NCBI GenBank assembly: GCA_903901045.1
Contig: CAIUPP010000147.1
Coordinates: forward strand, 1-22,635
DNA length: 22,635 nucleotides
Source of the DNA: an uncultured Planctomycetota bacterium
Lineage (GTDB): Bacteria > Planctomycetota > Brocadiia > CAIUPP01
Reading direction: 5' to 3'
The notes beneath the pieces are model-generated. The model was given only the letters and a program-made list of their open reading frames with translations. It searched no databases and was not told the DNA's origin. Within the stretch, counting starts at the first letter, position 1. Each line of letters begins with the position of its first letter. A program made the translations under genes and the position numbers. This document shows positions 8,177-21,740 of this stretch, piece after piece.

Positions 8177-8974
8177 ATGAAGATACATATCGTCTTACTT
8201 TGGGTCCTTGGCGTATGCTGCGCCGCCAGCGCGCAGCCGGCGGCTTCCGTCAATCCCGCCGGATATAGCTATGAAGTCTCAAAGGTTCGTACGGCATCCG
8301 ATGTGTGCCTTCACCTCGGGTCGAACCAGAATAAGAGCACGTACTCCGTCGAGTTCAGCGGGGACTTCAAGGTCGTCAAGGATGCGGACGTGGTCGCAGT
8401 CGAGCAGAGCTTCGTGCCGCTGGAGGCGCCGGGCGCCAAGGGAAACAACCTCTACAACATGAACTCCCGCAAGTCGGGGGCCCCGCGGTACACGGCGGTC
8501 CATACGCGAGTCGCGCAGATGGGCCTCCCGCGCACCGAGCTTCTGGCCAATGCCTTCCTGATCGACAAGATGCGCGTTCAGGCCGAGGTGGTCATAGCGA
8601 AGAAACGCGAGGAGAAGGTCTTCGCGGTGCGCGGGATGGAGGACTTTGAAAGGGTGGCCGACGGGCTCTCCATCCGCATTCGGAACATCAATATGAGCGA
8701 CAAGCGGGAGCTCACGGTGGTAGTGAAATACACCCGCACCGAGGCCGGCACGCGAATGCCGTTTCTCGAGGCGGTCTATGCGCTGGATACGCAGGGGAAG
8801 GAGATCGGCGGCGACCGCTGGGCAAGCGGGGATCCGTTTGCCACCACGGGTGAGTTGACGTACAAGTTCTATCTCAGCGGAGATCAAACGCACAAGAGCT
8901 TGCGGCTCGTTGCCGTGACCGATAATGCGGCCGAAACGGTGGCGTTCGATATCAGCGGCGCTTTCCAGAAATGA
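8177..8974 (+). CDS. hypothetical secreted protein (265 aa)
   Basis: Signal peptide MKIHIVLLWVLGVCCAASAQP. The SD GGGAGGGG lies 6 nt upstream of ATG 8177. No family recognised. The upstream extension of the ORF track was rejected. Confidence 0.6.
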   Translation: MKIHIVLLWVLGVCCAASAQPAASVNPAGYSYEVSKVRTASDVCLHLGSNQNKSTYSVEFSGDFKVVKDADVVAVEQSFVPLEAPGAKGNNLYNMNSRKSGAPRYTAVHTRVAQMGLPRTELLANAFLIDKMRVQAEVVIAKKREEKVFAVRGMEDFERVADGLSIRIRNINMSDKRELTVVVKYTRTEAGTRMPFLEAVYALDTQGKEIGGDRWASGDPFATTGELTYKFYLSGDQTHKSLRLVAVTDNAAETVAFDISGAFQK

Positions 8975-9969: not shown

Positions 9970-11946
9970 TCAGACCTTGGGGACGTCCCCGGGGAGCACT
10001 TCCGTCTTCTTCCCCAGGTTCTTCGTCAGCGTGGCCGCCAGCGCCTGAAACGCGCCGAGGTCGCCGCCGGCGACGAGGATATCCGGGACGATCTTGATCT
10101 TCTCTTTGGCCAGTTCCTTGGCGATGTTGACCAGGGCGGTGGGCATCTGGCCCAGCGCGTTCACCTGCGCGGTGTACGCCTCGGCGTTGGCCATACCGAT
10201 GGCGCGGGTCTTCGAGGCCTCGGCGTCGCCGGTCTGCTTGATGAAGGAAGCTTCGCCGTCGGCCTGCGCCTTGCGCGCGTTCGCGTTGTTCTGCTCGATG
10301 TTGATCGTCACCTCGGACTTGGCCAGCGAGGACTGCATGTCCGCCATTCCCTTGGCCTTCTCCGTCTGGATGCGCTGCTCCTGCGCTTCGCGCTGCTTCT
10401 GGTACGTCTGAATCTCCTGGTTCGCGATTTCGCGGTCGGTCAGCACGTGGACGATCTGCTCGGGCAGAATCACATCCTGGATGTACACTCCCTTGGTCTC
10501 GACGGCGTACTCGTCCAGTTTCCCCTTGATGTGGGCGAACGCCTCCTCCTGCACCATCTGGCGCGTCTCGATGAACTTCACCGCCGGCAGCGCCTGGAGG
10601 CGGTCGCGGAAATGGTTTCCGACGGCGGCCTGGAGCACCTCGGTCACCAGGTTCATCATCGTGCCGACCATGGAGATCACGCGCGGGGCCTTCACGTCGG
10701 GCACGTGGATCTGCACCTGCAGGTCGATCTTGAAGACGAACCCCTCGCGGCTTTTCGCCGTGATCTGCTCGAGGCGCGAGTCCAGATGATGCGCCTGCGA
10801 TTCCGCCTCCGCCCAGTTGAGCGTGAGGATGCAGGTGGGGACGATCTCCCACTGGTAGCAGTGCGGGTTAATGGGGTACTTGCCGGTGCGCAGCGGTTCC
10901 TGCCAGATGCCGCGATGCCCCGGCTTCACCAGCGCGCCGAAGCGGAACTCCTCCTCGGAAATGTCCTCCGTCGGCAATCCCACGTATGCCTTCACCACGG
11001 CCACCTCGCCCTGCTCCACGACCAGCATGAACACCTTCTCGACCTTGATCAGGAAGGGGTTCAAGTTGTAGGCGCCGTAGAGAAGCGGGTCGTGCTGCAA
11101 GCCGATCTTGCCCCCCTTGTCCAGGAACAACTGGAAGTCCTGGTAGTTGTTGTGAAGATGGTTCTTGGTGCCGAGGCAGGCTTCGATCAGGTGGTTCTCG
11201 GAATTCCCCTCCTTTTCGAGCGCCTCGACGTCGGCGAAGCCGCCGAGCCGGCTGGCGATGTCGCCCGCCGTGAGCGGCTGCCCTTCGAAGACCGTCACGA
11301 TGCCGATGGTATCGCGCATCTTGCCGCTGTTGTCCGGCAGCGCCTCGATCCGCACCACCTCCAACTGCTCCGGGTTCAACCCGAAGGATTTGCAGGTCAG
11401 CCGTCCGCTCTCGGCCATGCGCTGGATGTCCGGCGAGATCGGGACGCCGTAAACGTTCGCCTTGGTGATCACCAGGAAGCCGACGGGGTGGATCGGCGCC
11501 AGCGTGCCCGGCGCGAGCACGGGGCGCTGCACGCCCTTCTGCCCGCCGTTTTCGATGAACGCCTTGATGTCCGTGAAGCTGCCGAAGGAGGGCTTGTAGA
11601 AGGCGGATTTCGAGCCGATCGGCGGGGGCGCGCCGATCTGCGAGATCACCACGCCGATCTCACCCGCCGGCACCTGCACCCAGGGATACTTCACGACCTT
11701 ATAGACCACCCAGAACTTCCAGCGCCAGCCGGGCATCAGCAGGTCGGCCTGATAGCCGGCCTCGCCGTGGAAGCCGATCGGGCAGTCCCCCGTCAGCTTC
11801 GACCAGGAGAAGCGCTTCATCACCAGCCCGACTTCCGTCGGCCCGATGACGCGGATCGAAGGGAGTATCACGAAGAACAAAAGGAAGAAAGCGGCGGCGA
11901 ACGACCACCCGACAAACGTCACATGAAGTGTGAATTGCGCCGGCAT
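9970..11946 (-). CDS. SPFH/band-7 flotillin-family membrane protein (659 aa) with a long C-terminal coiled-coil/Ala-rich repeat region
   Basis: An N-terminal TM helix is followed by SPFH-like IRVIGPTEVGLVMKRF...PGWRWKFWVVYKV and a flotillin-type C-terminal EA-rich helical region. The SD GGAGGGG lies 5 nt upstream of the internal ATG (reverse-complement CAT 11944-11946), chosen over ORF-track start 12036. Confidence 0.75.
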   Translation of the reverse strand: MPAQFTLHVTFVGWSFAAAFFLLFFVILPSIRVIGPTEVGLVMKRFSWSKLTGDCPIGFHGEAGYQADLLMPGWRWKFWVVYKVVKYPWVQVPAGEIGVVISQIGAPPPIGSKSAFYKPSFGSFTDIKAFIENGGQKGVQRPVLAPGTLAPIHPVGFLVITKANVYGVPISPDIQRMAESGRLTCKSFGLNPEQLEVVRIEALPDNSGKMRDTIGIVTVFEGQPLTAGDIASRLGGFADVEALEKEGNSENHLIEACLGTKNHLHNNYQDFQLFLDKGGKIGLQHDPLLYGAYNLNPFLIKVEKVFMLVVEQGEVAVVKAYVGLPTEDISEEEFRFGALVKPGHRGIWQEPLRTGKYPINPHCYQWEIVPTCILTLNWAEAESQAHHLDSRLEQITAKSREGFVFKIDLQVQIHVPDVKAPRVISMVGTMMNLVTEVLQAAVGNHFRDRLQALPAVKFIETRQMVQEEAFAHIKGKLDEYAVETKGVYIQDVILPEQIVHVLTDREIANQEIQTYQKQREAQEQRIQTEKAKGMADMQSSLAKSEVTINIEQNNANARKAQADGEASFIKQTGDAEASKTRAIGMANAEAYTAQVNALGQMPTALVNIAKELAKEKIKIVPDILVAGGDLGAFQALAATLTKNLGKKTEVLPGDVPKV

Positions 11947-12220: not shown

Positions 12221-13078
12221 GTGACCGACGAAGGCATCAATTCAAATGCGCAAGATAGCGACCACCCGGCAAGCTGCCTGCTGACTCGCAGATTCCAGAA
12301 GCTTGCGGTATGGGTTGGCGTCTTGGTGGGAATCGTCGCCTTTTTTCTCTGCGTGCTACAGAGGGGGTCTCCCTCGGGCATCAGCACAATCTGGGCCGGA
12401 AGCTCCTGGGAATTGGATATCGTCACAGGGTTGCTCAGCCTCTTGCTTGCCGGCCTTGTGGGATGGCTCTTCTGGGGGATGGCGCTCGCCATTGGTGGGA
12501 TGGCATGTGATTATCGGAATGGGACGCGCCTTCAAAAGGCATTCATACTGGCTGCCATATTCGCCGGGCTCGCCTGTTTTGTGGCGTCCATGTGCCCGGT
12601 ACAACGTGGATGGCCTGTCAATGCCGGAATCGGTCTCCTCATGGGTGCGCTGGTTTGCGTGTTTGTTCTAGCCCTGGGACAGGCGGTCGATTGGGTTCTT
12701 GAAGGCTTCCGACTAGGCATGGGCTTTCGGCGACTAACAATTCCGGCGGCTATTTTCGGGGCTCTTCTGATTCTTGGCTGCATCTTTGGCGTGGAGCATA
12801 CGGGTGGCCTTGCGTTCGCAATTGCGGTTGTTTGGTGGTTGTGTGGCATCCGGCGTGACATGGCAGGGCGACTGCTGGCAAGCCGCGTCGGCTGGTTTGC
12901 GGGAATCACGGCGTGGCTGATAGTCCTGCAGGTGGTTCTGCACGGTGAAGCCCGCGCTTCCCGCGAAGCTGGATATCCCTGGATTATACTTGTCCCCATT
13001 GGCACGGGGATTATTGCGTGGATCATCACGCTGATTATCGGACAAGTCCGTGGGCGCAAGAACAGCAGCAAGCTCTAA
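12221..13078 (+). CDS. hypothetical polytopic membrane protein (285 aa), lower GC than the flanking genes
   Basis: Multiple hydrophobic helices. GTG start with SD GAGGGAGG 6 nt upstream. The stop TAA (13076-13078) is formed by the first bases of the alpha element terminus. No family recognised. Confidence 0.55.
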   Translation: MTDEGINSNAQDSDHPASCLLTRRFQKLAVWVGVLVGIVAFFLCVLQRGSPSGISTIWAGSSWELDIVTGLLSLLLAGLVGWLFWGMALAIGGMACDYRNGTRLQKAFILAAIFAGLACFVASMCPVQRGWPVNAGIGLLMGALVCVFVLALGQAVDWVLEGFRLGMGFRRLTIPAAIFGALLILGCIFGVEHTGGLAFAIAVVWWLCGIRRDMAGRLLASRVGWFAGITAWLIVLQVVLHGEARASREAGYPWIILVPIGTGIIAWIITLIIGQVRGRKNSSKL

Positions 13079-13515
13079 CTACGAAACACGCGAAAGGCGC
13101 GAAAGTGGAAGAGAGGATTATTTTTAAGGACGAGAGCTACAAAATCATCGGGGCATGCTTCGAGGTGTACAAGGAGAAGGGGAACGGCTTTTTGGAGGCG
13201 GTGTACCAGGAATGCCTGGGCATCGAGTTCGCGGCACAAGGCATCCCCTTTGCCGAAAAGCCGCGACTGCGATTGGCTTACAAGGGACAGGAACTCAGGC
13301 AGGAATATGAACCCGATTTCCTATGCTTTGACAAGATCGTCGTTGAGATCAAGGCGGTGAAGTTGCTGGCCGATGAACACCGCGCGCAGGTCATCAACTA
13401 CTTGAAGGCGACTGGGAAGCAACTGGGGCTGCTGGTTAACTTCGGCCACTATCCAAAGATCGAAATGGAGCGCTTTGTAAACCAGCCTCTTCCGCGCGCA
13501 TCGCATGCTCTATAG
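13076..13515 (+). mobile_element. alpha-family element carrying a GxxExxY gene (left terminus TAACTACGAAACACGCGAAAGGCGCGAAA immediately followed by the ORF); the right terminus is replaced by the adjacent derivative copy
   Basis: The left terminus matches the other copies. The gene's start codon lies directly after GCGCGAAA (GTG here, ATG in the derivative at 13547, ACG in the mini copy at 12049). Confidence 0.6.
13105..13515 (+). CDS. GxxExxY-family protein (PD-(D/E)xK nuclease-like fold, 136 aa)
   Basis: ESYKIIGACFEVYKEKGNGFLEAVYQECL contains the GxxExxY signature (GFLEAVY). The length and the remaining conserved pattern (LRLAYKG...EPDF...VVEIKAVK...QVINYLKATG...LLVNFG) fit the family. The GTG start is as described for the carrying element. 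Confidence 0.7.
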   Translation: MEERIIFKDESYKIIGACFEVYKEKGNGFLEAVYQECLGIEFAAQGIPFAEKPRLRLAYKGQELRQEYEPDFLCFDKIVVEIKAVKLLADEHRAQVINYLKATGKQLGLLVNFGHYPKIEMERFVNQPLPRASHAL

Positions 13516-14388: not shown

Positions 14389-14643
14389 TTCAGCGACTCC
14401 TTGCGGGCGCGCCGAGTTGCGCGCACTGAGATTATGATAGCAGCGGCGACGGAGTGTTTCAAGTAGAGGGGCGTTGGCGGTCGAGGCAGACGAAGTGGCG
14501 CGGGTTATCCAACCCGCGATCATGGTGCATTCCTTCCGCTTTCCTCCTCTCGCGGGCCGATGGCCCGCGACGCGGACTGGATAGTCCGCGCCACTTACGA
14601 CGGCCGCGCCACAGCCCCTGTGATTGGCCGACTGCCGCACAAG

Positions 14644-14672
14644 TTGACTGTCTTCTCAGCCCCTCCTATAAT
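14644..14672 (+). promoter_or_regulatory. consensus sigma70-type promoter TTGACT-N17-TATAAT placed to give a leaderless argB mRNA
   Basis: TTGACT at 14644-14649, a 17-bp spacer, and TATAAT at 14667-14672. The ATG at 14680 is only 7 nt after the -10 and has no SD, so the predicted TSS is at or within 1 nt of the A of the start codon. Confidence 0.55.
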
Positions 14673-14679
14673 CGGCGCC

Positions 14680-15576
14680 ATGAACACAATGGAAGAAGCG
14701 ATTCGCAAGGCGGCGGCGCTGATCGAGGCGCTGCCGTACATACAATCTTTTCGCGGAAAGAACTTCGTCGTGAAGTTCGGCGGCGCCGCTATGGAAGACC
14801 CGGCCACCCTGGACTGCGTCCTGGATGATGTGGTCTTCCTCCAGGCCGTCGGCATCCACCCCATCCTCGTTCACGGCGGCGGGCCGGAGATCAGCCGCGA
14901 GATGAAGGCGCGCAATATCCAGCCGAAGTTCATCCGCGGCCACCGCGTCACCGATCAGGCCACGCTGGAGATCGTCCGCGACGTGCTGGCCAACCGCATC
15001 AACGCCGGCATCTGCAAGCATCTCGAACAGCTCGGCGGGCGGCCGATTCCCTTCGCCGACCCGTCGCGCGGCCTGCTCAAAGGGCGCAAGCGCCTGGCCC
15101 GCCTCGAAGGCCCCGACGGCAAGGTGGAGGAGGTGGACCTGGGCTTCGTCGGCGACATCACCGGCATGGATGTCGACGCCTTCACGCGCGCGATTCAGGC
15201 CGGGCAGGTGCCGATCGTCGCCAGCCTCGCCCTCGGCGAGCAGGGGGAGGTGCTTAACGTCAACGCCGACATCGCCGCTGGCCACGTCGCCGTCGCGCTC
15301 AAGGCGGAGAAGGTGGTCTTCCTCACCGACACCCCCGGCATCATGACCGAGCCGAAGGACAAGAACTCGTTCGCCGGCACGCTCACGGAAAGCCACATCG
15401 ACGACCTGATCCGGCGCGGCGTGATCGACGGCGGCATGCTCCCCAAGGTGGAGGCCTGCCTGACGGCGCTGCGCGCGGGCATCCGCAAGACGCACATCAT
15501 CGACGGGCGCATCAAGCACTCCCTGCTGCTGGAGATCTTCACCGATCAAGGCATCGGCACGCAGATCATTCCTTAG
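14680..15576 (+). CDS. argB: acetylglutamate kinase
   Basis: The N-terminus MNTMEEAIRKAAALIEALPYIQSFRGKNFVVKFGGAAME is typical of the long (Pseudomonas/Thermotoga-type) ArgB. The amino-acid-kinase fold motifs continue throughout (HGGGPEI, LNVNADIAAG, DGGMLPKVEAC). 298 aa. Confidence 0.9.
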   Translation: MNTMEEAIRKAAALIEALPYIQSFRGKNFVVKFGGAAMEDPATLDCVLDDVVFLQAVGIHPILVHGGGPEISREMKARNIQPKFIRGHRVTDQATLEIVRDVLANRINAGICKHLEQLGGRPIPFADPSRGLLKGRKRLARLEGPDGKVEEVDLGFVGDITGMDVDAFTRAIQAGQVPIVASLALGEQGEVLNVNADIAAGHVAVALKAEKVVFLTDTPGIMTEPKDKNSFAGTLTESHIDDLIRRGVIDGGMLPKVEACLTALRAGIRKTHIIDGRIKHSLLLEIFTDQGIGTQIIP

Positions 15577-15691
15577 ATCAATGGTCAATAGGCAATGGTC
15601 AATGGTCAACGGTCAATGGTCAATGGGCGGCAGCGTCGTTCCGTTGCCGTCGTTGACAATGGCCCATTGAGAATTGCCCATTGCCCATTGC
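15577..15691. repeat. tandem-repeat palindrome H3: about 5-6 direct copies of a 10-bp unit (CAATGGTCAA) followed, after a short GC hairpin, by inverted copies (TTGCCCATTG x3)
   Basis: Read directly from 15577-15630 (ATCAATGGTCAATAGGCAATGGTCAATGGTCAACGGTCAATGGTCAATGGGCGG) and 15651-15691. It lies between the argB stop and the lipoprotein gene and overlaps that gene's possible 5' end. Confidence 0.65.
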
Positions 15692-17172
15692 TCCGTTTCC
15701 TCCCCGCGTTCCTCCTGACGGCGTTGCTGCTTCTGCTGACCGGCTGCGTCCATGGCGGGCCGTACAATCCCGATGTGGACCTCTGGCCGGTCATGCGCAC
15801 CTGGACCGATCCGGCGCAGAACGCCGCCGGGCTGGAGGCGCTCGGCCCCCTCATCGAGTGGGAACGCGGCCCGAAGGGAAGCCATTTCGATTTTCGTCCT
15901 CTTTACTCCCAGGGCTATGACCCGCTGACGAAAATCACCGAAAGCGACAAGCCCTGGCCGTTCGGCTTCGGCACGAGCCGCCCCGACCTGGAACGCACTT
16001 TCGTCTTCCCCTTCTATCTGAAGGACCACGAGACGCTCGCCGACGGCGCCACGCAGAACACCGTCGTCATCCTGCCGCTTTGGTATTCCAAGTCCGCGCA
16101 CGGCGAGGATCCGGCCAGTTGGCTGTTCTTCCCGTTCGCCGGCTCGCTCCATCACGTCTTCCAGCGCGACCGCGTCATCATCATTCTGTGGCCTCTCTAC
16201 ATCTATCAGGCCAGCTATAAGCCCGGCGATGAAGCGAAGCACTGGAGCTTCATTTATCCCATCTTCGCCTACGTCCGCTGGGCGGATGGCGGGCGCGGCT
16301 ACAAGTTCTGGCCGCTGTACGGCATGAATCGCCGCCCCGAGCCGAAGAAGATGATCAACAACTTCGTCCTCTGGCCGATCTGGCAGTACCAGTACAAACG
16401 GATCGAGCAGGGAGAGATCAAGCGCTGGTGGGTCTTCCCGCTCGTCGGCCACCTCGATGAGCCCCGGGGGTATGAATGGGCCTTCCTCTGGCCTTTCTTC
16501 GGGAAACGGGTGGACCGCAACCTGGATCAAACGACCTGGTGGTATCCCTGGCCGTTCCTGGGAAATCGCACCGGCGGCAGCGTCTTCGGGTGGACTGTTT
16601 GGCCGCTCTGTACGTATGAACGGCGCGGTCAGACGCGCAGCGGCCAGTACCTCTGGCCGCTGGGGTGGTACCGCGCCGAGGACCATCCGCTGGAAAGCAA
16701 TCGCAGCATCCGCCTGATTCCGCTTGCCTTCCGCGAGAAGGAGACCTGGCCCCAGGGGCCCGACACGGGGGCCTGGCAGTTCTGGCCGCTGATGAAGTGG
16801 CGCAACGAGAAAGAGTTCAACCAGTTCGAGACGCTCAGCCTCTTCCCCATGCGCAACTACGTCCCCTGGGAGCGGCATTTCGCTCCGTTCTTCCGGATTT
16901 TCGAGTACCGCCGCGACAAGGAGGAGCAGATTCGCTCCTGGCGGTTCCTCTGGCGCGTCGTGCGGGTGGACTCTGGGCCGAACCTTCGCTATGCTGAGGT
17001 CACGCCGCTGTTCGATTTCCATCGCGCGACCGGGGAAAAGCCGGAGGCGCAATGGAGCATCCTCAAAGGGCTGGTCGGCTACGATCGCACTCCGGAGCGC
17101 CGCCGCCTTCATCTGTTATACTTCGTGCGGATCGGCCTCGGTCGCGGAATGCAGGAGACTTCGTCGCAATGA
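15667..17172 (+). CDS. tryptophan-rich repeat lipoprotein (about 500 aa; roughly 20 repeats of an aromatic-W-P-aromatic motif), first gene of the mla-type operon
   Basis: Lipoprotein signal peptide ...FLPAFLLTALLLLLTGC. The mature protein has recurring motifs FWPLYG, LWPIWQYQY, FLWPFFG, WWYPWPFLG, VWPLCTYE, YLWPLGWYR and FWPLMKWR at roughly 20-25-aa spacing. Its stop overlaps the mlaE ATG (ATGA). The start is uncertain: TTG at 15667 gives MRIAHCPLLRF...; the ORF-track ATG 15595 would translate the tandem repeat. Confidence 0.55.
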   Translation: MRIAHCPLLRFLPAFLLTALLLLLTGCVHGGPYNPDVDLWPVMRTWTDPAQNAAGLEALGPLIEWERGPKGSHFDFRPLYSQGYDPLTKITESDKPWPFGFGTSRPDLERTFVFPFYLKDHETLADGATQNTVVILPLWYSKSAHGEDPASWLFFPFAGSLHHVFQRDRVIIILWPLYIYQASYKPGDEAKHWSFIYPIFAYVRWADGGRGYKFWPLYGMNRRPEPKKMINNFVLWPIWQYQYKRIEQGEIKRWWVFPLVGHLDEPRGYEWAFLWPFFGKRVDRNLDQTTWWYPWPFLGNRTGGSVFGWTVWPLCTYERRGQTRSGQYLWPLGWYRAEDHPLESNRSIRLIPLAFREKETWPQGPDTGAWQFWPLMKWRNEKEFNQFETLSLFPMRNYVPWERHFAPFFRIFEYRRDKEEQIRSWRFLWRVVRVDSGPNLRYAEVTPLFDFHRATGEKPEAQWSILKGLVGYDRTPERRRLHLLYFVRIGLGRGMQETSSQ

Positions 17173-17957
17173 ACATGGATGACTTGCCCAACTCCTTCCT
17201 GGTGTTCGTGGGAACGAAGGTGCTCGACGGCTGCAATGAGGCCGGCGCCATGCTCATTCTGCTGGTCCAGTGCGTGCGCGAGGCCCCGCAAGCCATGCGC
17301 CGCAAGCATCGGCTGATCATCCAGATGAAACGCGTGGGGCCGGACTCCCTGTTCATCGCCGGCGCCCTCGCCCTGTTCATCGGCATGGTGCTGGCGCTCC
17401 ACAGCGGCTACAGCCTGCGCCAATTCGACTTCGAGGAGGCGCTCGCTCCGATCGTGGCGCTCAGCATGGTCAAGGAAATGGCCCCGGTCATCACCGCGCT
17501 GCTGCTTTCGGGGCGCATCGGCGCGGCCATTGCCGCCGAGATCGGCACCATGCAGGTCAATGAGGAGATCGACGCGCTCCACACCCTGGGCATCAGCCCG
17601 GTCCGCTACCTGGCTATTCCCCGGCTGATCGGCTGCGTCGCCATGCTTCCGCTGCTCACCATCTACGCAGGCATCGTGGGAATGTACGGCGGCGCCCTCG
17701 TGGCCGCCACCTACTTCGATATCAGCTACACGGTCTATTTCCAGCGGGCTTTTGACTCGATGGAGATGAAGGACGTGATGGAAGGACTGCTCAAGGCCTT
17801 GCTCTTCGGCGCGATCATCGCGATCGTCGCCTGCCATCGCGGCTTCAGCACGCGCGGCGGCGCGGAGGGGGTCGGGCGCGCCATCACCACGTGCGTCGTC
17901 ACCAGTTTCATTGCCATCATCATCTGCGACTACTTTGTGACCAGGTTCATGATGTGA
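17169..17957 (+). CDS. mlaE: MlaE-family ABC transporter permease (lipid-asymmetry/MCE-associated permease)
   Basis: Length and helical pattern with the conserved MlaE-type region (...EIDALHTLGISPVRYLAIPRLIGCVAMLPLLTIY...). The start overlaps the upstream stop by 4 nt. Confidence 0.85.
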   Translation: MNMDDLPNSFLVFVGTKVLDGCNEAGAMLILLVQCVREAPQAMRRKHRLIIQMKRVGPDSLFIAGALALFIGMVLALHSGYSLRQFDFEEALAPIVALSMVKEMAPVITALLLSGRIGAAIAAEIGTMQVNEEIDALHTLGISPVRYLAIPRLIGCVAMLPLLTIYAGIVGMYGGALVAATYFDISYTVYFQRAFDSMEMKDVMEGLLKALLFGAIIAIVACHRGFSTRGGAEGVGRAITTCVVTSFIAIIICDYFVTRFMM

Positions 17958-18718
17958 GCGAGAACGCAGGAAAAACCTACGATGTGATCGCCGAAAAGCT
18001 CAACAAGAGCTTCGGGGCCAACCACGTCCTCAGGGACTTCACCCTGAGCGTGGAGAAGGGGCAAACCTTCGTTATTGTCGGCCCCTCCGGCTCCGGCAAG
18101 AGCGTTTTTCTCAAGCACCTCGTCGGCCTGATCACTCCGGACTCCGGCGAGGTCGTCGTCCTGAGCAAGAAGATCAACGAGCTTCCCCCCGAGGAACTGC
18201 TGGCGCTGCGCCGGCGCATCGGCATGGTCTTCCAGTCCAGCGCCCTGCTCAACAGCCTCACCGTCGAGGAGAACGTCGGCCTGGGATTGACCGAGCATGG
18301 CCTGATCGGCCAAGAGGAAGTGCTCAAGATCGTCAATGAGAAACTGGCCCTGGTCGAAATGTCCGGCAAGAACCAGCTGCTCCCCGAGGAGCTCAGCGGC
18401 GGCATGCGCAAGCGCGTGGCCGTGGCGCGGACGCTGGCGCTCGGACCCGACATGATCCTCTTCGACGAGCCCACCGTCGGCCTCGATCCGCTGCTCTCCA
18501 GCAACGTGGATGAGCTGATCCTGGGGCTGAAGAAGAACGTGAAATGCACCAACATCGTCGTCACGCACGACCTGATCACCGCGTTCCGCGTCGCCGACCG
18601 CATCGGCATGTTCCACGACGGCAAGATCGTCGCCATTGGCGCCCCCGAGGAGTTCCGGCGCAGCCAGGACAAATCGGTGCAGGAGTTCATCGCCCGCAAT
18701 AGAGACTGGAGAATCTGA
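17954..18718 (+). CDS. mlaF: MlaF-family ABC transporter ATP-binding protein
   Basis: Walker A GPSGSGKS, ABC signature LSGGMRKRVAVAR, Walker B ILFDEPTVGLD and H-loop VTHD are present. The GTG start overlaps the mlaE stop (GTGA). 254 aa. Confidence 0.9.
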   Translation: MSENAGKTYDVIAEKLNKSFGANHVLRDFTLSVEKGQTFVIVGPSGSGKSVFLKHLVGLITPDSGEVVVLSKKINELPPEELLALRRRIGMVFQSSALLNSLTVEENVGLGLTEHGLIGQEEVLKIVNEKLALVEMSGKNQLLPEELSGGMRKRVAVARTLALGPDMILFDEPTVGLDPLLSSNVDELILGLKKNVKCTNIVVTHDLITAFRVADRIGMFHDGKIVAIGAPEEFRRSQDKSVQEFIARNRDWRI

Positions 18719-18719
18719 A

Positions 18720-19844
18720 ATGAAACTCAACACCGAAGGCAAAGTCGGGCTTTTCTTCCTGGTCGGCCTGGCGATCCTGGGGGTCATCACCTTCAAGGTG
18801 GAGAACCTGGGCGCCCTGATGCACCGGACCACCATGTACACCGTGGAATTCCCCCACGCCGCCAATATCAAAGCCGGCGACACGGTCTCCATGGCGGGAG
18901 TCAAAATCGGCGAGGTCAAGCAGGTCAAGCTCACCGACAGCGCGGTGCGGTTCATCCTGGCCGTCGAGAGCAACGTCCGCATCCACAAGGACAGCGTGGC
19001 CAGCATCGCCTGGGGCGGCCTGCTGGGCAACCGCTACATCGACCTGACCATCGGCACCTCCGCCTCCGGCGTCCTCTCCCCCGGCGAGGCCATCGTCAAC
19101 ACCACCCCCACCGTGGAAATCACCGAGGTGCTCAAGAAACTGGACCTGGCCGCCACGTCGCTCCAGGAGATGTTCAAGGGCGCCAATTTCGGGCCGAAGT
19201 TCTCCAACCTCTTGGACAACCTCAACAAGATCAGCGAGGACATCAGCCAGCAGAAGGGGACGCTGGGCAAGCTGGTCGGGTCCGACGAGATGTACAACAA
19301 GGTGGTCTCCATCGCCGACGACCTGAAGAGCACCTCGGAGCGCATCAGCAAACTGGTCAAGGACAACGACCAGCGCATCAACTCCATCATCGAGAACCTC
19401 GACGCCGCAATCCCGGAGGCCAAGGACGCCTTCGCCGCCATCAAGAAGCTCGGCCAGCAGGCCGATACCGGCAAGGGGCTGCTGCCGGCGCTGCTCAACG
19501 ACGAGCAGATGTACAAGGACTTCAAAGACTCCCTGGCCTCGCTGCGCGGCTCGCTGGACAAGATCGAATCGGTCGCCACCGCCATGAAGGATGGCAAGGG
19601 GCTGATCGGCAAGCTCTCCAATGACGAGCAACTCGCTAAGGATTTCAGCGACACGATCACGCACGTCAAGAACATCACGCAGCGCATCGACAACGGGGAG
19701 GGGACGCTGGGCAAGCTGACCACCGACGATACCCTGTACAAGCAGGCGCAGAAGGTTCTGGATGACGTGCGCGAGGCGGTGCGCAGCATGCGCGAGCAGG
19801 TGCCGGTGGGGACGTTCGCAAGCCTGCTGCTCGGCGCGTTCTAA
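18720..19844 (+). CDS. mlaD: MlaD/MCE-family protein with an extended C-terminal helical repeat region (374 aa)
   Basis: An N-terminal TM helix and an MCE domain (VEFPHAANIKAGDTVSMAGVKIGEVKQVKL...) are followed by four ~35-aa repeats with the core G-x-G-(T/L)-L-G-K-L-x-x-D-(E/D)-x-(M/L)-Y-K. The ATG lies 1 nt after the mlaF stop. Confidence 0.85.
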   Translation: MKLNTEGKVGLFFLVGLAILGVITFKVENLGALMHRTTMYTVEFPHAANIKAGDTVSMAGVKIGEVKQVKLTDSAVRFILAVESNVRIHKDSVASIAWGGLLGNRYIDLTIGTSASGVLSPGEAIVNTTPTVEITEVLKKLDLAATSLQEMFKGANFGPKFSNLLDNLNKISEDISQQKGTLGKLVGSDEMYNKVVSIADDLKSTSERISKLVKDNDQRINSIIENLDAAIPEAKDAFAAIKKLGQQADTGKGLLPALLNDEQMYKDFKDSLASLRGSLDKIESVATAMKDGKGLIGKLSNDEQLAKDFSDTITHVKNITQRIDNGEGTLGKLTTDDTLYKQAQKVLDDVREAVRSMREQVPVGTFASLLLGAF

Positions 19845-20063: not shown

Positions 20064-21242
<1,179 letters not shown>

Positions 21243-21269: not shown

Positions 21270-21740
21270 ATGGCGTCCACGAGTCGGAACTTCCCATTCT
21301 TGACGGGCAGTCCCATGCAGAGGAGCCTCAGATGGGTCTGCGGATGCTTCCTGGCCATCATCATATTGATTCTCACGAGCGTGGGCTTTGCTCGCTTCGT
21401 CCATTACCATGCGCAGAACACTCTCCTGGGACCCGGTGACTACACAGTCGAAGTGCTTACGGCGGCAGACTATCAAAGACTTGCCGATCCCAAAGTGCGA
21501 GTGGTGACACTGACCAGCGGGATGACCATCGCAAAGGGTGATGCGTTCGATGTGAAACGCTACCAGCCTGTTGGCGATGGCAACCACTATGTCTTCGTTA
21601 TGTTGACCGGAACGGCCCCCATGATGCCGTTGCTCTATCGAACGCTATTCCCGCTGCTCGTGCTGGCTGTCGTCGGGATTTTCGCTGCCTCTGTAGCGCT
21701 CAAACATTGCCCGAAAGGGGAAACTGAGACGGAGACATGA
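21270..21740 (+). CDS. hypothetical small membrane protein (156 aa), lower GC than argD
   Basis: The SD AAGGGAG lies 8 nt upstream of ATG 21270. There are two hydrophobic segments and a strong hairpin terminator downstream. No family recognised. Confidence 0.5.
   Translation: MASTSRNFPFLTGSPMQRSLRWVCGCFLAIIILILTSVGFARFVHYHAQNTLLGPGDYTVEVLTAADYQRLADPKVRVVTLTSGMTIAKGDAFDVKRYQPVGDGNHYVFVMLTGTAPMMPLLYRTLFPLLVLAVVGIFAASVALKHCPKGETETET

What the first reader, a model, noticed from the sequence alone, without database searches (positions are those of the whole stretch)
15667..19844. A Trp-rich repeat lipoprotein translationally coupled to mlaE-mlaF-mlaD: candidate unrecognised outer-membrane partner of an Mla/MCE lipid-transport system
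The mlaE, mlaF and mlaD genes are linked by 4-nt and 1-nt overlaps, and the roughly 500-aa lipoprotein gene upstream overlaps mlaE by ATGA, so the four genes form one translationally coupled operon. The lipoprotein has a lipobox (LTGC). Its mature part consists of about 20 reiterations of an aromatic-W-P-aromatic strand motif (FWPLYG, LWPIWQYQY, FLWPFFG, WWYPWPFLG, VWPLCTYE, YLWPLGWYR, FWPLMKWR...) at roughly 22-aa spacing, suggestive of a large beta-rich repeat fold. It does not resemble MlaA/VacJ or MlaC as I know them. No mlaA, mlaB or mlaC homolog is visible in the window. The MCE protein also has an unusual C-terminal extension of four ~35-aa repeats.
Basis: partly seen in the sequence, partly recalled or inferred. 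Interest (0 to 1): 0.7.

Follow-up and report, generated by a model that had tools for sequence, protein, structure and literature searches.

The report
Uncharacterised β-hairpin protein partnering MCE lipid transporter
A secreted, tryptophan-rich protein built from about 20 β-hairpins, belonging to a large family absent from Pfam, NCBIfam and the solved structures, sits in one operon with an Mla/MCE lipid transporter across several bacterial phyla, and is probably the unknown periplasmic or outer-membrane partner of "needle"-type MCE systems.

Summary
Window 15616/15667-19844 carries four tightly packed + strand genes: a ~500-aa signal-peptide/lipobox protein ("X"), mlaE, an mlaF-like ATPase, and an MCE protein.

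X has 19 Pro-anchored ΦΦ(W/F)PΦΦ units spaced 19.6±1.7 aa. It shows 15 strict motifs against 2.0±1.3 in shuffles.

X matches nothing in Pfam, NCBIfam or PDB sequences. Its AlphaFold2 model is confident (pLDDT 88.6, pTM 0.73) and shows ~46 short β-strands with no global PDB match.

A profile search finds 2,626 cluster representatives. X lies directly beside mlaE or the MCE gene in 34/52 species genomes and 58/64 informative metagenome loci, in two gene orders and at least six phyla. Sampling from the MCE side finds X again.

- mlaF and the MCE gene are separated by 1 nt, not overlapping.
- The MCE extension is the known helical needle, not unusual.
- The lipobox occurs in only ~27% of family members.

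Best reading: X is the fourth, periplasm-exposed subunit. Its hairpin tips form a greasy Trp rim that inserts into one membrane leaflet, most likely in the outer membrane, where it docks the needle tip. This is analogous, not homologous, to PqiC/PA3214. Location and contact are inferred, not shown.

The parts
15616..17172 (+). Gene X: secreted Trp/Pro-rich β-hairpin-repeat protein. It is 518 aa from ATG 15616; alternative in-frame starts are ATG 15595 and TTG 15667 (501 aa).
   Evidence: ORF list. Public gene calls give an identical 518-aa product, P0001. No Pfam, NCBIfam or PDB-sequence match. AF2 pLDDT 88.6, pTM 0.73.
15667..15747 (+). Signal peptide with lipobox: MRIAHCPLLRFLPAFLLTALLLLLTG|C. 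LTGC is at 15736-15747.
   Evidence: Sequence and translation. The AF2 model shows a helix at residues 7-24 followed by a disordered linker. The Cys is not conserved in alignment A1. About 27% of the family has a lipobox, and none of those has Asp at +2.
15775..17142 (+). β-hairpin array, residues 37-492: about 46 strands of 5-8 aa and 19 Pro-anchored ΦΦ(W/F)PΦΦ hairpin tips.
   Evidence: DSSP of the AF2 model. Register of the units. Position-specific profile of the unit: hydrophobic and aromatic at -4..+2, at least 40% charged at the far end. Motif count against shuffles.
16870..16902 (+). Most conserved motif of the family, E-R-H-F-A-P-F-F-R-I-F (family pattern E[RT][NH][FWY][AG]P[FL][FW]R[VLI][FY]). 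It lies in the model's only two helical segments outside the signal peptide (residues 399-404 and 406-409).
   Evidence: Alignment A1. The tool chose this motif as the most conserved stretch for back-translation. Helices H399-404 and H406-409 in the model.
17169..17957 (+). mlaE-family ABC permease. Its ATG overlaps the X stop (ATGA).
   Evidence: PF02405 E 4e-76. TIGR00056 scores 233 bits, above its cut-off of 212. Junction sequence.
17954..18718 (+). mlaF-like ABC ATPase. Its GTG start overlaps the mlaE stop (GTGA).
   Evidence: PF00005 E 4e-32. The MlaF equivalog NF008809 scores 174 bits, below its cut-off of 441. Junction sequence.
18720..19844 (+). MCE protein of the 'long MlaD' type, starting 1 nt after the ATPase stop. 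Layout: TM helix (18732-18818), MCE domain (18828-19094), helical needle with four GxGxLGKL repeats (19119-19799), hydrophobic C-terminal tail VPVGTFASLLLGAF (19800-19841).
   Evidence: PF02470 E 2e-18. PF28544 Helical_needle is recorded for the identical protein P0181. Repeats. AF2 secondary structure. The tail is conserved in X-linked MCE proteins and across alignment A2. Nearest solved relatives are Mce1B (8FED_B, E 1e-27) and PA3213 (13HR, E 2e-25).

Best explanation
X is a dedicated fourth, periplasm-exposed subunit of an MlaE-MlaF-MCE ABC lipid transporter whose MCE protein carries a periplasm-spanning helical needle.

What is shown:
- X is exported. It has a Sec signal peptide, here with a lipobox.
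- X is co-encoded with the transporter, usually with start/stop overlap, in many phyla and in two gene orders.
- X is predicted with high confidence to be a ~46-strand antiparallel β-meander with no solved equivalent.
- Each hairpin tip is an uncharged L-W-P-L-type loop flanked by aliphatic and aromatic residues. Arg comes next, and the far end of each hairpin is acidic or polar.

What is inferred:
- The ~19 tips form one continuous greasy Trp rim that dips about one leaflet deep into a membrane, while the charged edge faces the periplasm.
- That membrane is the inner leaflet of the outer membrane.
- There X receives the tip of the MCE needle, possibly through the needle's conserved hydrophobic C-terminal tail. 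This would complete a trans-envelope route for phospholipids or other hydrophobic cargo, driven by the ATPase.
- In this role X would replace, without being homologous to, the PqiC/PA3214-type lipoprotein ring or MlaA.

Confidence that X is a functional subunit of the transporter is about 0.85. Confidence in the specific outer-membrane docking role is about 0.5.
For: Operon and coupling in the window.

Linkage, starting from X:
- Geotalea: X-E-D with a 4-nt overlap.
- A Planctomycete relative: X-E-F-D.
- A contig with the order E-F-D-X.
- 34 of 52 species-representative genome loci have X directly beside MlaE or MCE.
- 58 of 64 informative metagenome loci do so: 47 as X-E and 11 as D-X.

Linkage, starting from the MCE protein:
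- All 3 sampled MCE homologues that sit next to an mlaE also have a full-length X neighbour (E 1e-90 to 1e-103 against the X profile).
- The 2 sampled without X also lack an adjacent mlaE.

Export: alignment A1 shows a signal peptide or lipobox in the complete sequences (statistics). No lipobox-bearing member has Asp at +2.

Fold: AF2 pLDDT 88.6, pTM 0.73, all-β.

Rim polarity: 0% charged residues at offsets -2, 0 and +1. Trp is 52% at -1. Arg peaks at +4..+6. Charged residues reach at least 40% at the far ends.

Needle and tail.

Precedent: the C-terminal peptide of PA3213/PqiB binds a hydrophobic groove of the OM lipoprotein ring (PMC13631591).

Open niche: long MlaD proteins of the PVC group lack both MlaA/MlaC and a C-terminal β-barrel, and unidentified partners have been postulated (PMC10665443).
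Against: - No experiment and no complex prediction links X physically to the needle or to any membrane.
- The tools do not expose the model's coordinates. Whether the sheet closes into a ring, forms a spiral or stays open is unknown, and the 'rim' is deduced from sequence register plus DSSP only.
- The lipid anchor is absent from most of the family, so outer-membrane residence cannot rely on it.
- In Geobacterales the most persistent pairing is X-MlaE, even where no MCE or ATPase gene is adjacent. This would also fit an inner-membrane-proximal role.
- Some X relatives are not Mla-linked at all.
- The MCE tail is conserved across the whole alignment A2, including members sampled without an X neighbour, so it is not specific evidence for X.
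Confidence: 0.5

Rival explanations
1. X acts at the inner membrane. [quoted passage not shown] This would be comparable in role to the accessory proteins of mycobacterial Mce systems.
For: X-MlaE is the commonest and most persistent adjacency, usually with a 4-nt overlap. It survives in Geobacterales loci that have no MCE or ATPase gene nearby. Most family members lack a lipid anchor. The rim argument does not say which membrane is involved.
Against: In a second, independent gene order X follows the MCE gene directly, with an overlap or a gap of about 23 nt, and is then 1.8-2.6 kb from mlaE. Lipobox-bearing members never have Asp at +2, which is the inner-membrane retention signal in E. coli (this rule is not validated in these phyla). 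A needle with a hydrophobic tip still needs a distal partner, and the operon encodes no other candidate.
Confidence: 0.17
2. X is an integral outer-membrane protein inserted by BAM. It would be a very large, thin β-barrel that forms the outer-membrane conduit of the system, functionally like TGD4 or LptD.
Against: Strands are 5-8 residues, about 9.8 aa per strand plus turn, which is too short to span a bilayer. Hydrophobicity is concentrated at one end of each hairpin on both faces, rather than alternating along the strands, and the other end is at least 40% charged. The aromatic strand is followed by a variable tail of roughly 10-25 residues, so it is not a terminal β-signal. The barrel matches have rmsd 10-25 Å.
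Confidence: 0.1
3. X is a soluble periplasmic lipid-binding protein, either an MlaC-like shuttle or a cargo-selecting receptor. It would hold lipid on its aromatic surface and hand it to the MCE protein.
For: X is exported and mostly not lipidated. Its surface is rich in aromatic and Arg residues. Foldseek gives local matches to the amphipathic β-belt of ApoB100.
Against: Needle-type MCE systems are thought to bridge the envelope and do not need a shuttle (PMC10665443, PMC13631591). A row of 19 uncharged L-W-P-L tips would be hard to keep soluble. A substantial minority of members, including this one, are lipid-anchored.
Confidence: 0.1
4. X is functionally unrelated to the transporter, and the neighbourhood is a historical accident.
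For: Some relatives stand alone or next to unrelated genes.
Against: Adjacency is kept at 24-28% identity across at least six phyla. It occurs in two different gene orders, usually with overlapping stop and start codons, and is recovered when starting from the MCE side.
Confidence: 0.03

Closest known systems
Pseudomonas aeruginosa PA3211-PA3214 (MlaE-like, MlaF-like, needle-bearing MCE protein PA3213, PqiC-like OM lipoprotein PA3214); related systems are E. coli PqiABC and Brucella Mpc
   Same: A four-gene operon of an MlaE/MlaF-type ABC transporter, one single-MCE-domain protein with a C-terminal helical needle, and one exported accessory protein. The window's MCE protein is homologous to PA3213 (13HR, E 2e-25 over residues 7-244). 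Like PA3213 and PqiB, it ends in a hydrophobic C-terminal peptide (PMC13631591).
   Different: The accessory protein is not PqiC-like. It has no PF03886 or any other Pfam hit. It is ~500 aa and all-β rather than ~200 aa, and it shows no PDB match by sequence or by global fold. Most of its family lacks a lipobox. It is usually encoded first in the operon, overlapping mlaE. Its oligomeric state and contact site are unknown.
Veillonella parvula 'minimal' MlaEFD with a trans-envelope long MlaD (PMC10665443)
   Same: An MlaEFD core without MlaA, MlaB or MlaC, and a long α-helical MlaD proposed to bridge the two membranes. The same paper notes that most MlaD proteins are long.
   Different: V. parvula MlaD carries its own C-terminal outer-membrane β-barrel. 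The window's MCE protein has only a 14-residue hydrophobic tail. The paper reports no barrel in any PVC-group MlaD. Here a separate protein, X, is co-encoded instead.
Mycobacterial Mce1 complex (PDB 8FED/8FEE/8FEF)
   Same: It is the best-scoring solved sequence relative of the MCE protein (Mce1B, E 1e-27). It combines an MlaE-like permease (YrbE), an ATPase, an MCE ring and a helical needle. According to PMC10665443, each subunit contributes one terminal β-strand.
   Different: It is a hetero-hexamer of six Mce paralogues in a mycomembrane envelope. Its accessory proteins are unrelated to X.
E. coli MlaA-OmpC/F with MlaC and MlaFEDB
   Same: The same transporter family (MlaE, MlaF, MCE domain) and the same need for an outer-membrane-side lipid-handling component embedded in the inner leaflet.
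   Different: E. coli MlaD is short and has no needle, so it needs the soluble shuttle MlaC. MlaA is an α-helical lipoprotein (PF04333). X matches neither MlaA nor MlaC, and the window and its contig hold no MlaA, MlaB or MlaC.
Single-layer β-hairpin repeat folds (MORN repeats, CPAP G-box/TCP domain, OspA central sheet) and amphipathic β-belts (ApoB100), YD-repeat shells (teneurin)

Membership tests
MlaE permease family (Pfam PF02405 / TIGR00056) | Profile match above the curated cut-off | tested here: met
   PF02405 E 4e-76 (255.7 bits against a cut-off of 22.5). TIGR00056 233 bits against a cut-off of 212.2.
Canonical proteobacterial MlaE (NCBIfam NF033619) | Score at or above the curated cut-off of 315 bits | tested here: not met
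   201.8 bits. The protein is a family member but not the E. coli-type orthologue.
MlaF (NCBIfam equivalog NF008809) | Score at or above the curated cut-off of 441 bits | tested here: not met
   174 bits. The generic ABC_tran model PF00005 matches at E 4e-32. 'MlaF-like' rests on the protein's position between mlaE and the MCE gene.
MCE / MlaD domain proteins (Pfam PF02470) | MCE domain following an N-terminal TM helix | tested here: met
   PF02470 E 1.6e-18 at residues 38-110. AF2 shows a TM helix at 5-33 and a β-domain at 37-125 with pLDDT around 90.
Canonical short MlaD (TIGR04430) and mycobacterial Mce paralogues (TIGR00996) | Score at or above the curated cut-offs (135 and 140.5 bits) | tested here: not met
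   87.3 and 106.5 bits.
Needle-bearing ('long MlaD') MCE proteins (Pfam PF28544 Helical_needle) | All-helical C-terminal extension matching the needle profile | tested here: met
   PF28544 is recorded for the identical protein P0181 and for every listed full-length homologue; it is marked 'faint'. Residues 134-373 are all helical. Four GxGxLGKL repeats. Homology to PA3213 and Mce1B extends into the helical part.
PqiC-like OM lipoproteins (Pfam PF03886, ABC-type transport auxiliary lipoprotein), tested for X | Profile match; ~200-aa fold that forms rings | tested here: not met
   No Pfam family at E<=1 for X. Across 28 relatives the only hits are four unrelated families, one member each, at E>=0.1. 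X is ~500 aa and all-β. No PDB sequence hit at E<=10, although PqiC and PA3214 structures are in the PDB.
MlaA/VacJ (PF04333) and MlaC (PF05494), tested for X | Profile match | tested here: not met
   No hit at E<=1 in Pfam or NCBIfam.
Bacterial lipoproteins, tested for X | Signal peptide ending in a lipobox [LVI][ASTVI][GAS]C | tested here: met
   LLTG|C at 15736-15747. The feature is not conserved in the family: it is absent from about half of alignment A1 and present in ~27% of 173 members by a crude rule.
Integral outer-membrane β-barrel proteins, tested for X | Strands long enough to span the bilayer with alternating lipid-facing residues; a terminal aromatic β-signal | tested here: not met
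   Strands are 5-8 aa. Hydrophobicity clusters at one hairpin end on both faces. The conserved aromatic strand is followed by a variable tail. Closure of the sheet could not be inspected.
Known β-hairpin repeat families (MORN, YD/RHS, cell-wall/choline-binding repeats), tested for X | Profile match to the repeat; global fold match | tested here: not met

The most novel reading that the evidence does not exclude
X defines a widespread, previously unrecognised class of envelope protein. [quoted passage not shown]

This would supply the missing outer-membrane end of the ancestral MlaEFD trans-envelope lipid bridge in Planctomycetota, Thermodesulfobacteriota and several other phyla that lack MlaA, MlaC, PqiC and a MlaD β-barrel.
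Probability: 0.4. Interest if true: 0.85.

Novelty: new variant of a known kind. Interest (0 to 1): 0.72.

Why it matters
How phospholipids travel between the two membranes of diderm bacteria is still debated. MlaEFD with a long, needle-like MlaD is the commonest and probably ancestral form of the system. Outside Proteobacteria and the diderm Firmicutes, its outer-membrane end is unknown; PMC10665443 explicitly invokes unidentified proteins.

This work identifies a concrete candidate:
- a family with more than 2,600 clusters at 50% identity;
- no Pfam or NCBIfam model and no solved structure;
- a confidently predicted fold with no solved equivalent;
- operon linkage to the transporter in at least six phyla.

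That makes the question directly testable by fractionation, pull-down, multimer prediction and cryo-EM. Candidate hosts would be cultivable Geobacter or Planctomycetes, if they carry the family, which I did not check.

It would also add a new structural solution for docking a protein on one membrane leaflet, and it merits a protein-family definition.

Tried and rejected
- **Family libraries.** Pfam and NCBIfam scans of X found nothing above noise. This covered 28 relatives and 9 unusually long relatives, to look for informative domain fusions.
- **Profile against PDB sequences.** A search with the X profile at E<=10 gave 0 hits.
- **Model coordinates.** They are not exposed, so I could not check sheet closure, rim exposure or pore size.
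- **AF2 of the MCE monomer.** It gave the expected low-confidence helical region. I therefore did not run a fold search on it and used a sequence search of the PDB instead.
- **Literature.** Three full-text searches found no description of this family. A fourth query returned no papers at all.
- **Cluster names.** A look-up of cluster members gave no names.
- **Promoter and terminator scan.** It found nothing beyond chance inside the operon.
- **Rejected readings.** X as MlaA, MlaC or PqiC (no profile match). X as a canonical OMP (strands too short, wrong hydrophobicity pattern). Chance adjacency (conserved in two gene orders across phyla).
- **Considered but not attempted.** Covariation between X and the MCE tail. 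There are too few independent lineages in hand, and phylogeny would dominate the signal.

Full report
**1. What is in the sequence**

Four + strand genes fill 15595-19844 with almost no intergenic space.

- The first ORF ("X") ends at 17172. Its stop overlaps the ATG of the next gene as ATGA.
- That gene (17169-17957) is an MlaE permease: PF02405 at E 4e-76, and TIGR00056 above its curated cut-off.
- Its stop overlaps the GTG start of an ABC ATPase (17954-18718) as GTGA.
- One base after the ATPase stop, an MCE protein starts (18720-19844; PF02470 at E 2e-18).
- The ATPase and the MCE protein fall below the curated cut-offs of the E. coli-type MlaF and MlaD equivalogs. This is an Mla-family transporter, not an orthologue of the enterobacterial system.

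All three give the same hydrophobic signal sequence, ending in the lipobox L-T-G-C at 15736-15747.

**2. The repeats are real**

- The mature protein is 6.5% Trp and 18.8% aromatic residues.
- It holds 15 [WFY]P[LIFVM] motifs, against 2.0±1.3 in 20,000 shuffles. No shuffle reached 15.
- Using the invariant prolines of the family alignment as anchors gives 19 units spaced 19.6±1.7 aa.

**3. The MCE protein is a normal "long MlaD"**

- It has a TM helix (residues 5-33), a confidently modelled MCE domain (37-125) and an all-helical remainder (134-373).
- The helical part contains four G(K/E)GxLGKLxxD(D/E)xxY repeats.
- It ends in a hydrophobic tail, VPVGTFASLLLGAF.
- The public collection records Pfam PF28544 (Helical_needle) for this exact protein and for every listed full-length homologue.
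- Its nearest solved relatives by sequence are M. smegmatis Mce1B (8FED, E 1e-27) and P. aeruginosa PA3213 (entry 13HR, E 2e-25).
- Long helical MlaD proteins are the majority type across bacteria (PMC10665443).

**4. X belongs to no described family**

- No Pfam or NCBIfam model matches X at E<=1.
- Scans of 28 relatives and of nine atypically long relatives gave nothing above noise.
- A profile of the family finds no PDB sequence at E<=10.
- The word-indexed protein search found only 32 relatives. The exhaustive profile search found 2,626 cluster representatives at E<=1e-3, and 973 at E<=1e-30. Nearly all are 450-530 aa.

**5. Predicted structure**

With a 29-sequence alignment, AlphaFold2 gives mean pLDDT 88.6 and pTM 0.73. 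After the signal peptide the chain forms about 46 strands of 5-8 residues. The only interruption is two short helical segments (399-404 and 406-409), which carry the family's most conserved motif, E-R-(N/H)-F-A-P-F-F-R.

- Foldseek finds no global match (TM at most 0.17). It gives only local similarity to teneurin YD shells, OspA and the ApoB100 β-belt.

The fold is therefore a long β-hairpin meander with no solved full-length equivalent. I could not see the coordinates, so its overall shape (ring, spiral or open sheet) remains unknown.

**6. Anatomy of the repeat unit**

I aligned the 19 units on their proline and averaged over the 29 sequences.

- The four-residue hairpin loop is L-W-P-L-like. 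Offset -2 is 50% Leu, -1 is 52% Trp, 0 is 99% Pro and +1 is 49% Leu. No charged residues occur at -2, 0 or +1.
- The two rungs next to the loop are aliphatic or aromatic on both faces of the sheet.
- Arg, Tyr and His dominate at +4 to +6.
- The far ends (-9 to -6 and +5 to +9) are at least 38% charged (38-49%, except 31% at -7), with Asp, Glu, Gly and Pro common.

Along each hairpin the order is therefore aliphatic, then aromatic, then Arg, then acidic. This matches the depth profile expected for a protein edge inserted about one leaflet deep into a membrane. That reading is an inference from sequence register and DSSP, not from a 3D analysis.

**7. Genomic linkage**

Starting from X:

- In Geotalea sp. 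SG265 (24% identity), X overlaps mlaE by 4 nt and an MCE-needle gene follows.
- A Planctomycete relative has X-E-F-D.
- Another contig has the permuted order E-F-D-X.
- Among 52 loci from species-representative genomes, 34 have X directly beside mlaE or the MCE gene, and 4 more have an MCE gene within 5 kb. By record titles these span Planctomycetota/Brocadiia, Thermodesulfobacteriota including Geobacterales and Desulfuromonadales, Omnitrophota, Dadabacteria, Pontiellaceae and Lentisphaeria.
- Among 76 metagenome loci, 47 are X-mlaE and 11 are MCE-X. Only 6 have no partner despite adequate flanks, and 12 are cut by contig ends. Some of these contigs are redundant.

Starting from the MCE protein, I sampled five homologues at 26-29% identity.

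- All three that sit beside an mlaE also have a full-length X neighbour. Two are in the order X-E-F-D and one, from a Candidatus Tectomicrobia bacterium (by the NCBI protein name), is E-D-X. The X profile matches them at E 1e-90 to 1e-103.
- The two without X also lack an adjacent mlaE.

None of the inspected operons encodes an MlaA-, MlaC- or PqiC-like protein.

**8. Caveats from the family**

- The lipobox is not conserved. About half of alignment A1, and roughly 73% of 173 members by a crude rule, lack one; most of these have signal-peptidase-I type signal peptides.
- Where a lipobox is present, residue +2 is never Asp.
- Geobacterales carry extra paralogues: X-mlaE pairs without an ATPase or MCE gene, X-E-D sets without an ATPase, and solitary X genes.
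- A 1,767-aa multi-module relative sits among glycoside hydrolase genes.
- The hydrophobic MCE tail is conserved throughout the needle-bearing alignment, whatever the context.

**9. Interpretation**

It is well supported that X is a subunit or dedicated accessory factor of the transporter. The support is conserved linkage in two gene orders across phyla, translational coupling, and export to the same compartment as the MCE protein.

The nearest characterised systems are PA3211-PA3214, PqiABC and Brucella Mpc. In these, a needle-bearing MCE protein ends inside a ring of PqiC-like OM lipoproteins and binds them through its C-terminal peptide (PMC13631591; PMC12436622; PMC10897342). I therefore favour X as a non-homologous replacement for that outer-membrane element, anchored by its Trp rim and, in some lineages including this one, by a lipid.

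This would fill the gap noted for PVC-group bacteria, whose long MlaD proteins lack both MlaA/MlaC and a terminal β-barrel (PMC10665443).

The main rival places X at the inner membrane next to MlaE or the MCE ring. The persistence of the X-mlaE pairing keeps that reading alive. A thin OMP barrel and a soluble carrier are less likely, for the reasons given under the rival explanations.

Substrate and direction of transport cannot be inferred from the data.

**10. Novelty**

The transporter core is known. What is new is the accessory family, its predicted fold and its systematic association with needle-type MlaEFD operons. I found no description of it in the searched literature. I rate it a new variant of a known kind of system, built around a protein family that appears to be undescribed.

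Noticed in passing
window 15578-15697: Seven tandem TCAATGG heptamers (15578-15626) are followed 35 nt later by about four GCCCATT heptamers (15662-15691). Together they form a long inverted repeat. As RNA it folds at -58.9 kcal/mol (z -5.3; 0 of 200 shuffles fold as well). It lies between the argB-like stop (15576) and X, and it contains every in-frame start candidate of X. Each heptamer carries an ATG, so the candidate starts cycle through the three reading frames. Relatives at 81-82% protein identity (L065 4898-5030, L066 292-408) have the same architecture with fewer copies; the 3-sequence consensus fold has 38 pairs, 4 of them with changes on both sides. Its role is unknown; it could control translation or behave as a REP-like element.
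   Followed up: partly
window 14560-15576 and 20064-21242; L001 20301-21230: The X-mlaEFD operon sits inside an arginine-biosynthesis neighbourhood. An AA_kinase (argB-like) gene lies immediately upstream, a class-III aminotransferase (argD-like) gene downstream, and an ornithine carbamoyltransferase gene further along the contig. The argB-X adjacency recurs in a 42%-identical relative (L005).
   Followed up: no
L033, L039, L042, L048, L052, L054, L055 (X-mlaE only); L004, L026, L034, L036 (X-E-D without ATPase); L029, L031, L035, L038, L043, L049, L050 (solitary X): Geobacterales and Desulfuromonadales carry several X paralogues with partly dismantled operons. Some are X-mlaE pairs with no ATPase or MCE gene beside them, and some are X genes with no Mla neighbour at all. 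The ATPase and MCE partners of those permeases are unknown.
   Followed up: partly
P0081 (1767 aa), P0109, P0127, P0178 (about 1000 aa): These giant proteins match the X profile in 5-12 separate stretches and have no Pfam domain. P0081 lies among glycoside hydrolase and α2-macroglobulin genes, not Mla genes. The hairpin module is therefore also used outside MCE systems.
   Followed up: partly
window 13018-13515 and 9970-11946: A PDDEXK_3 (GxxExxY-type) protein and a 658-aa Band_7 protein lie upstream. Several medium-sized ORFs in the window have no Pfam match: 789-2957, 8177-8974, 12221-13078 and 21270-21740.
   Followed up: no
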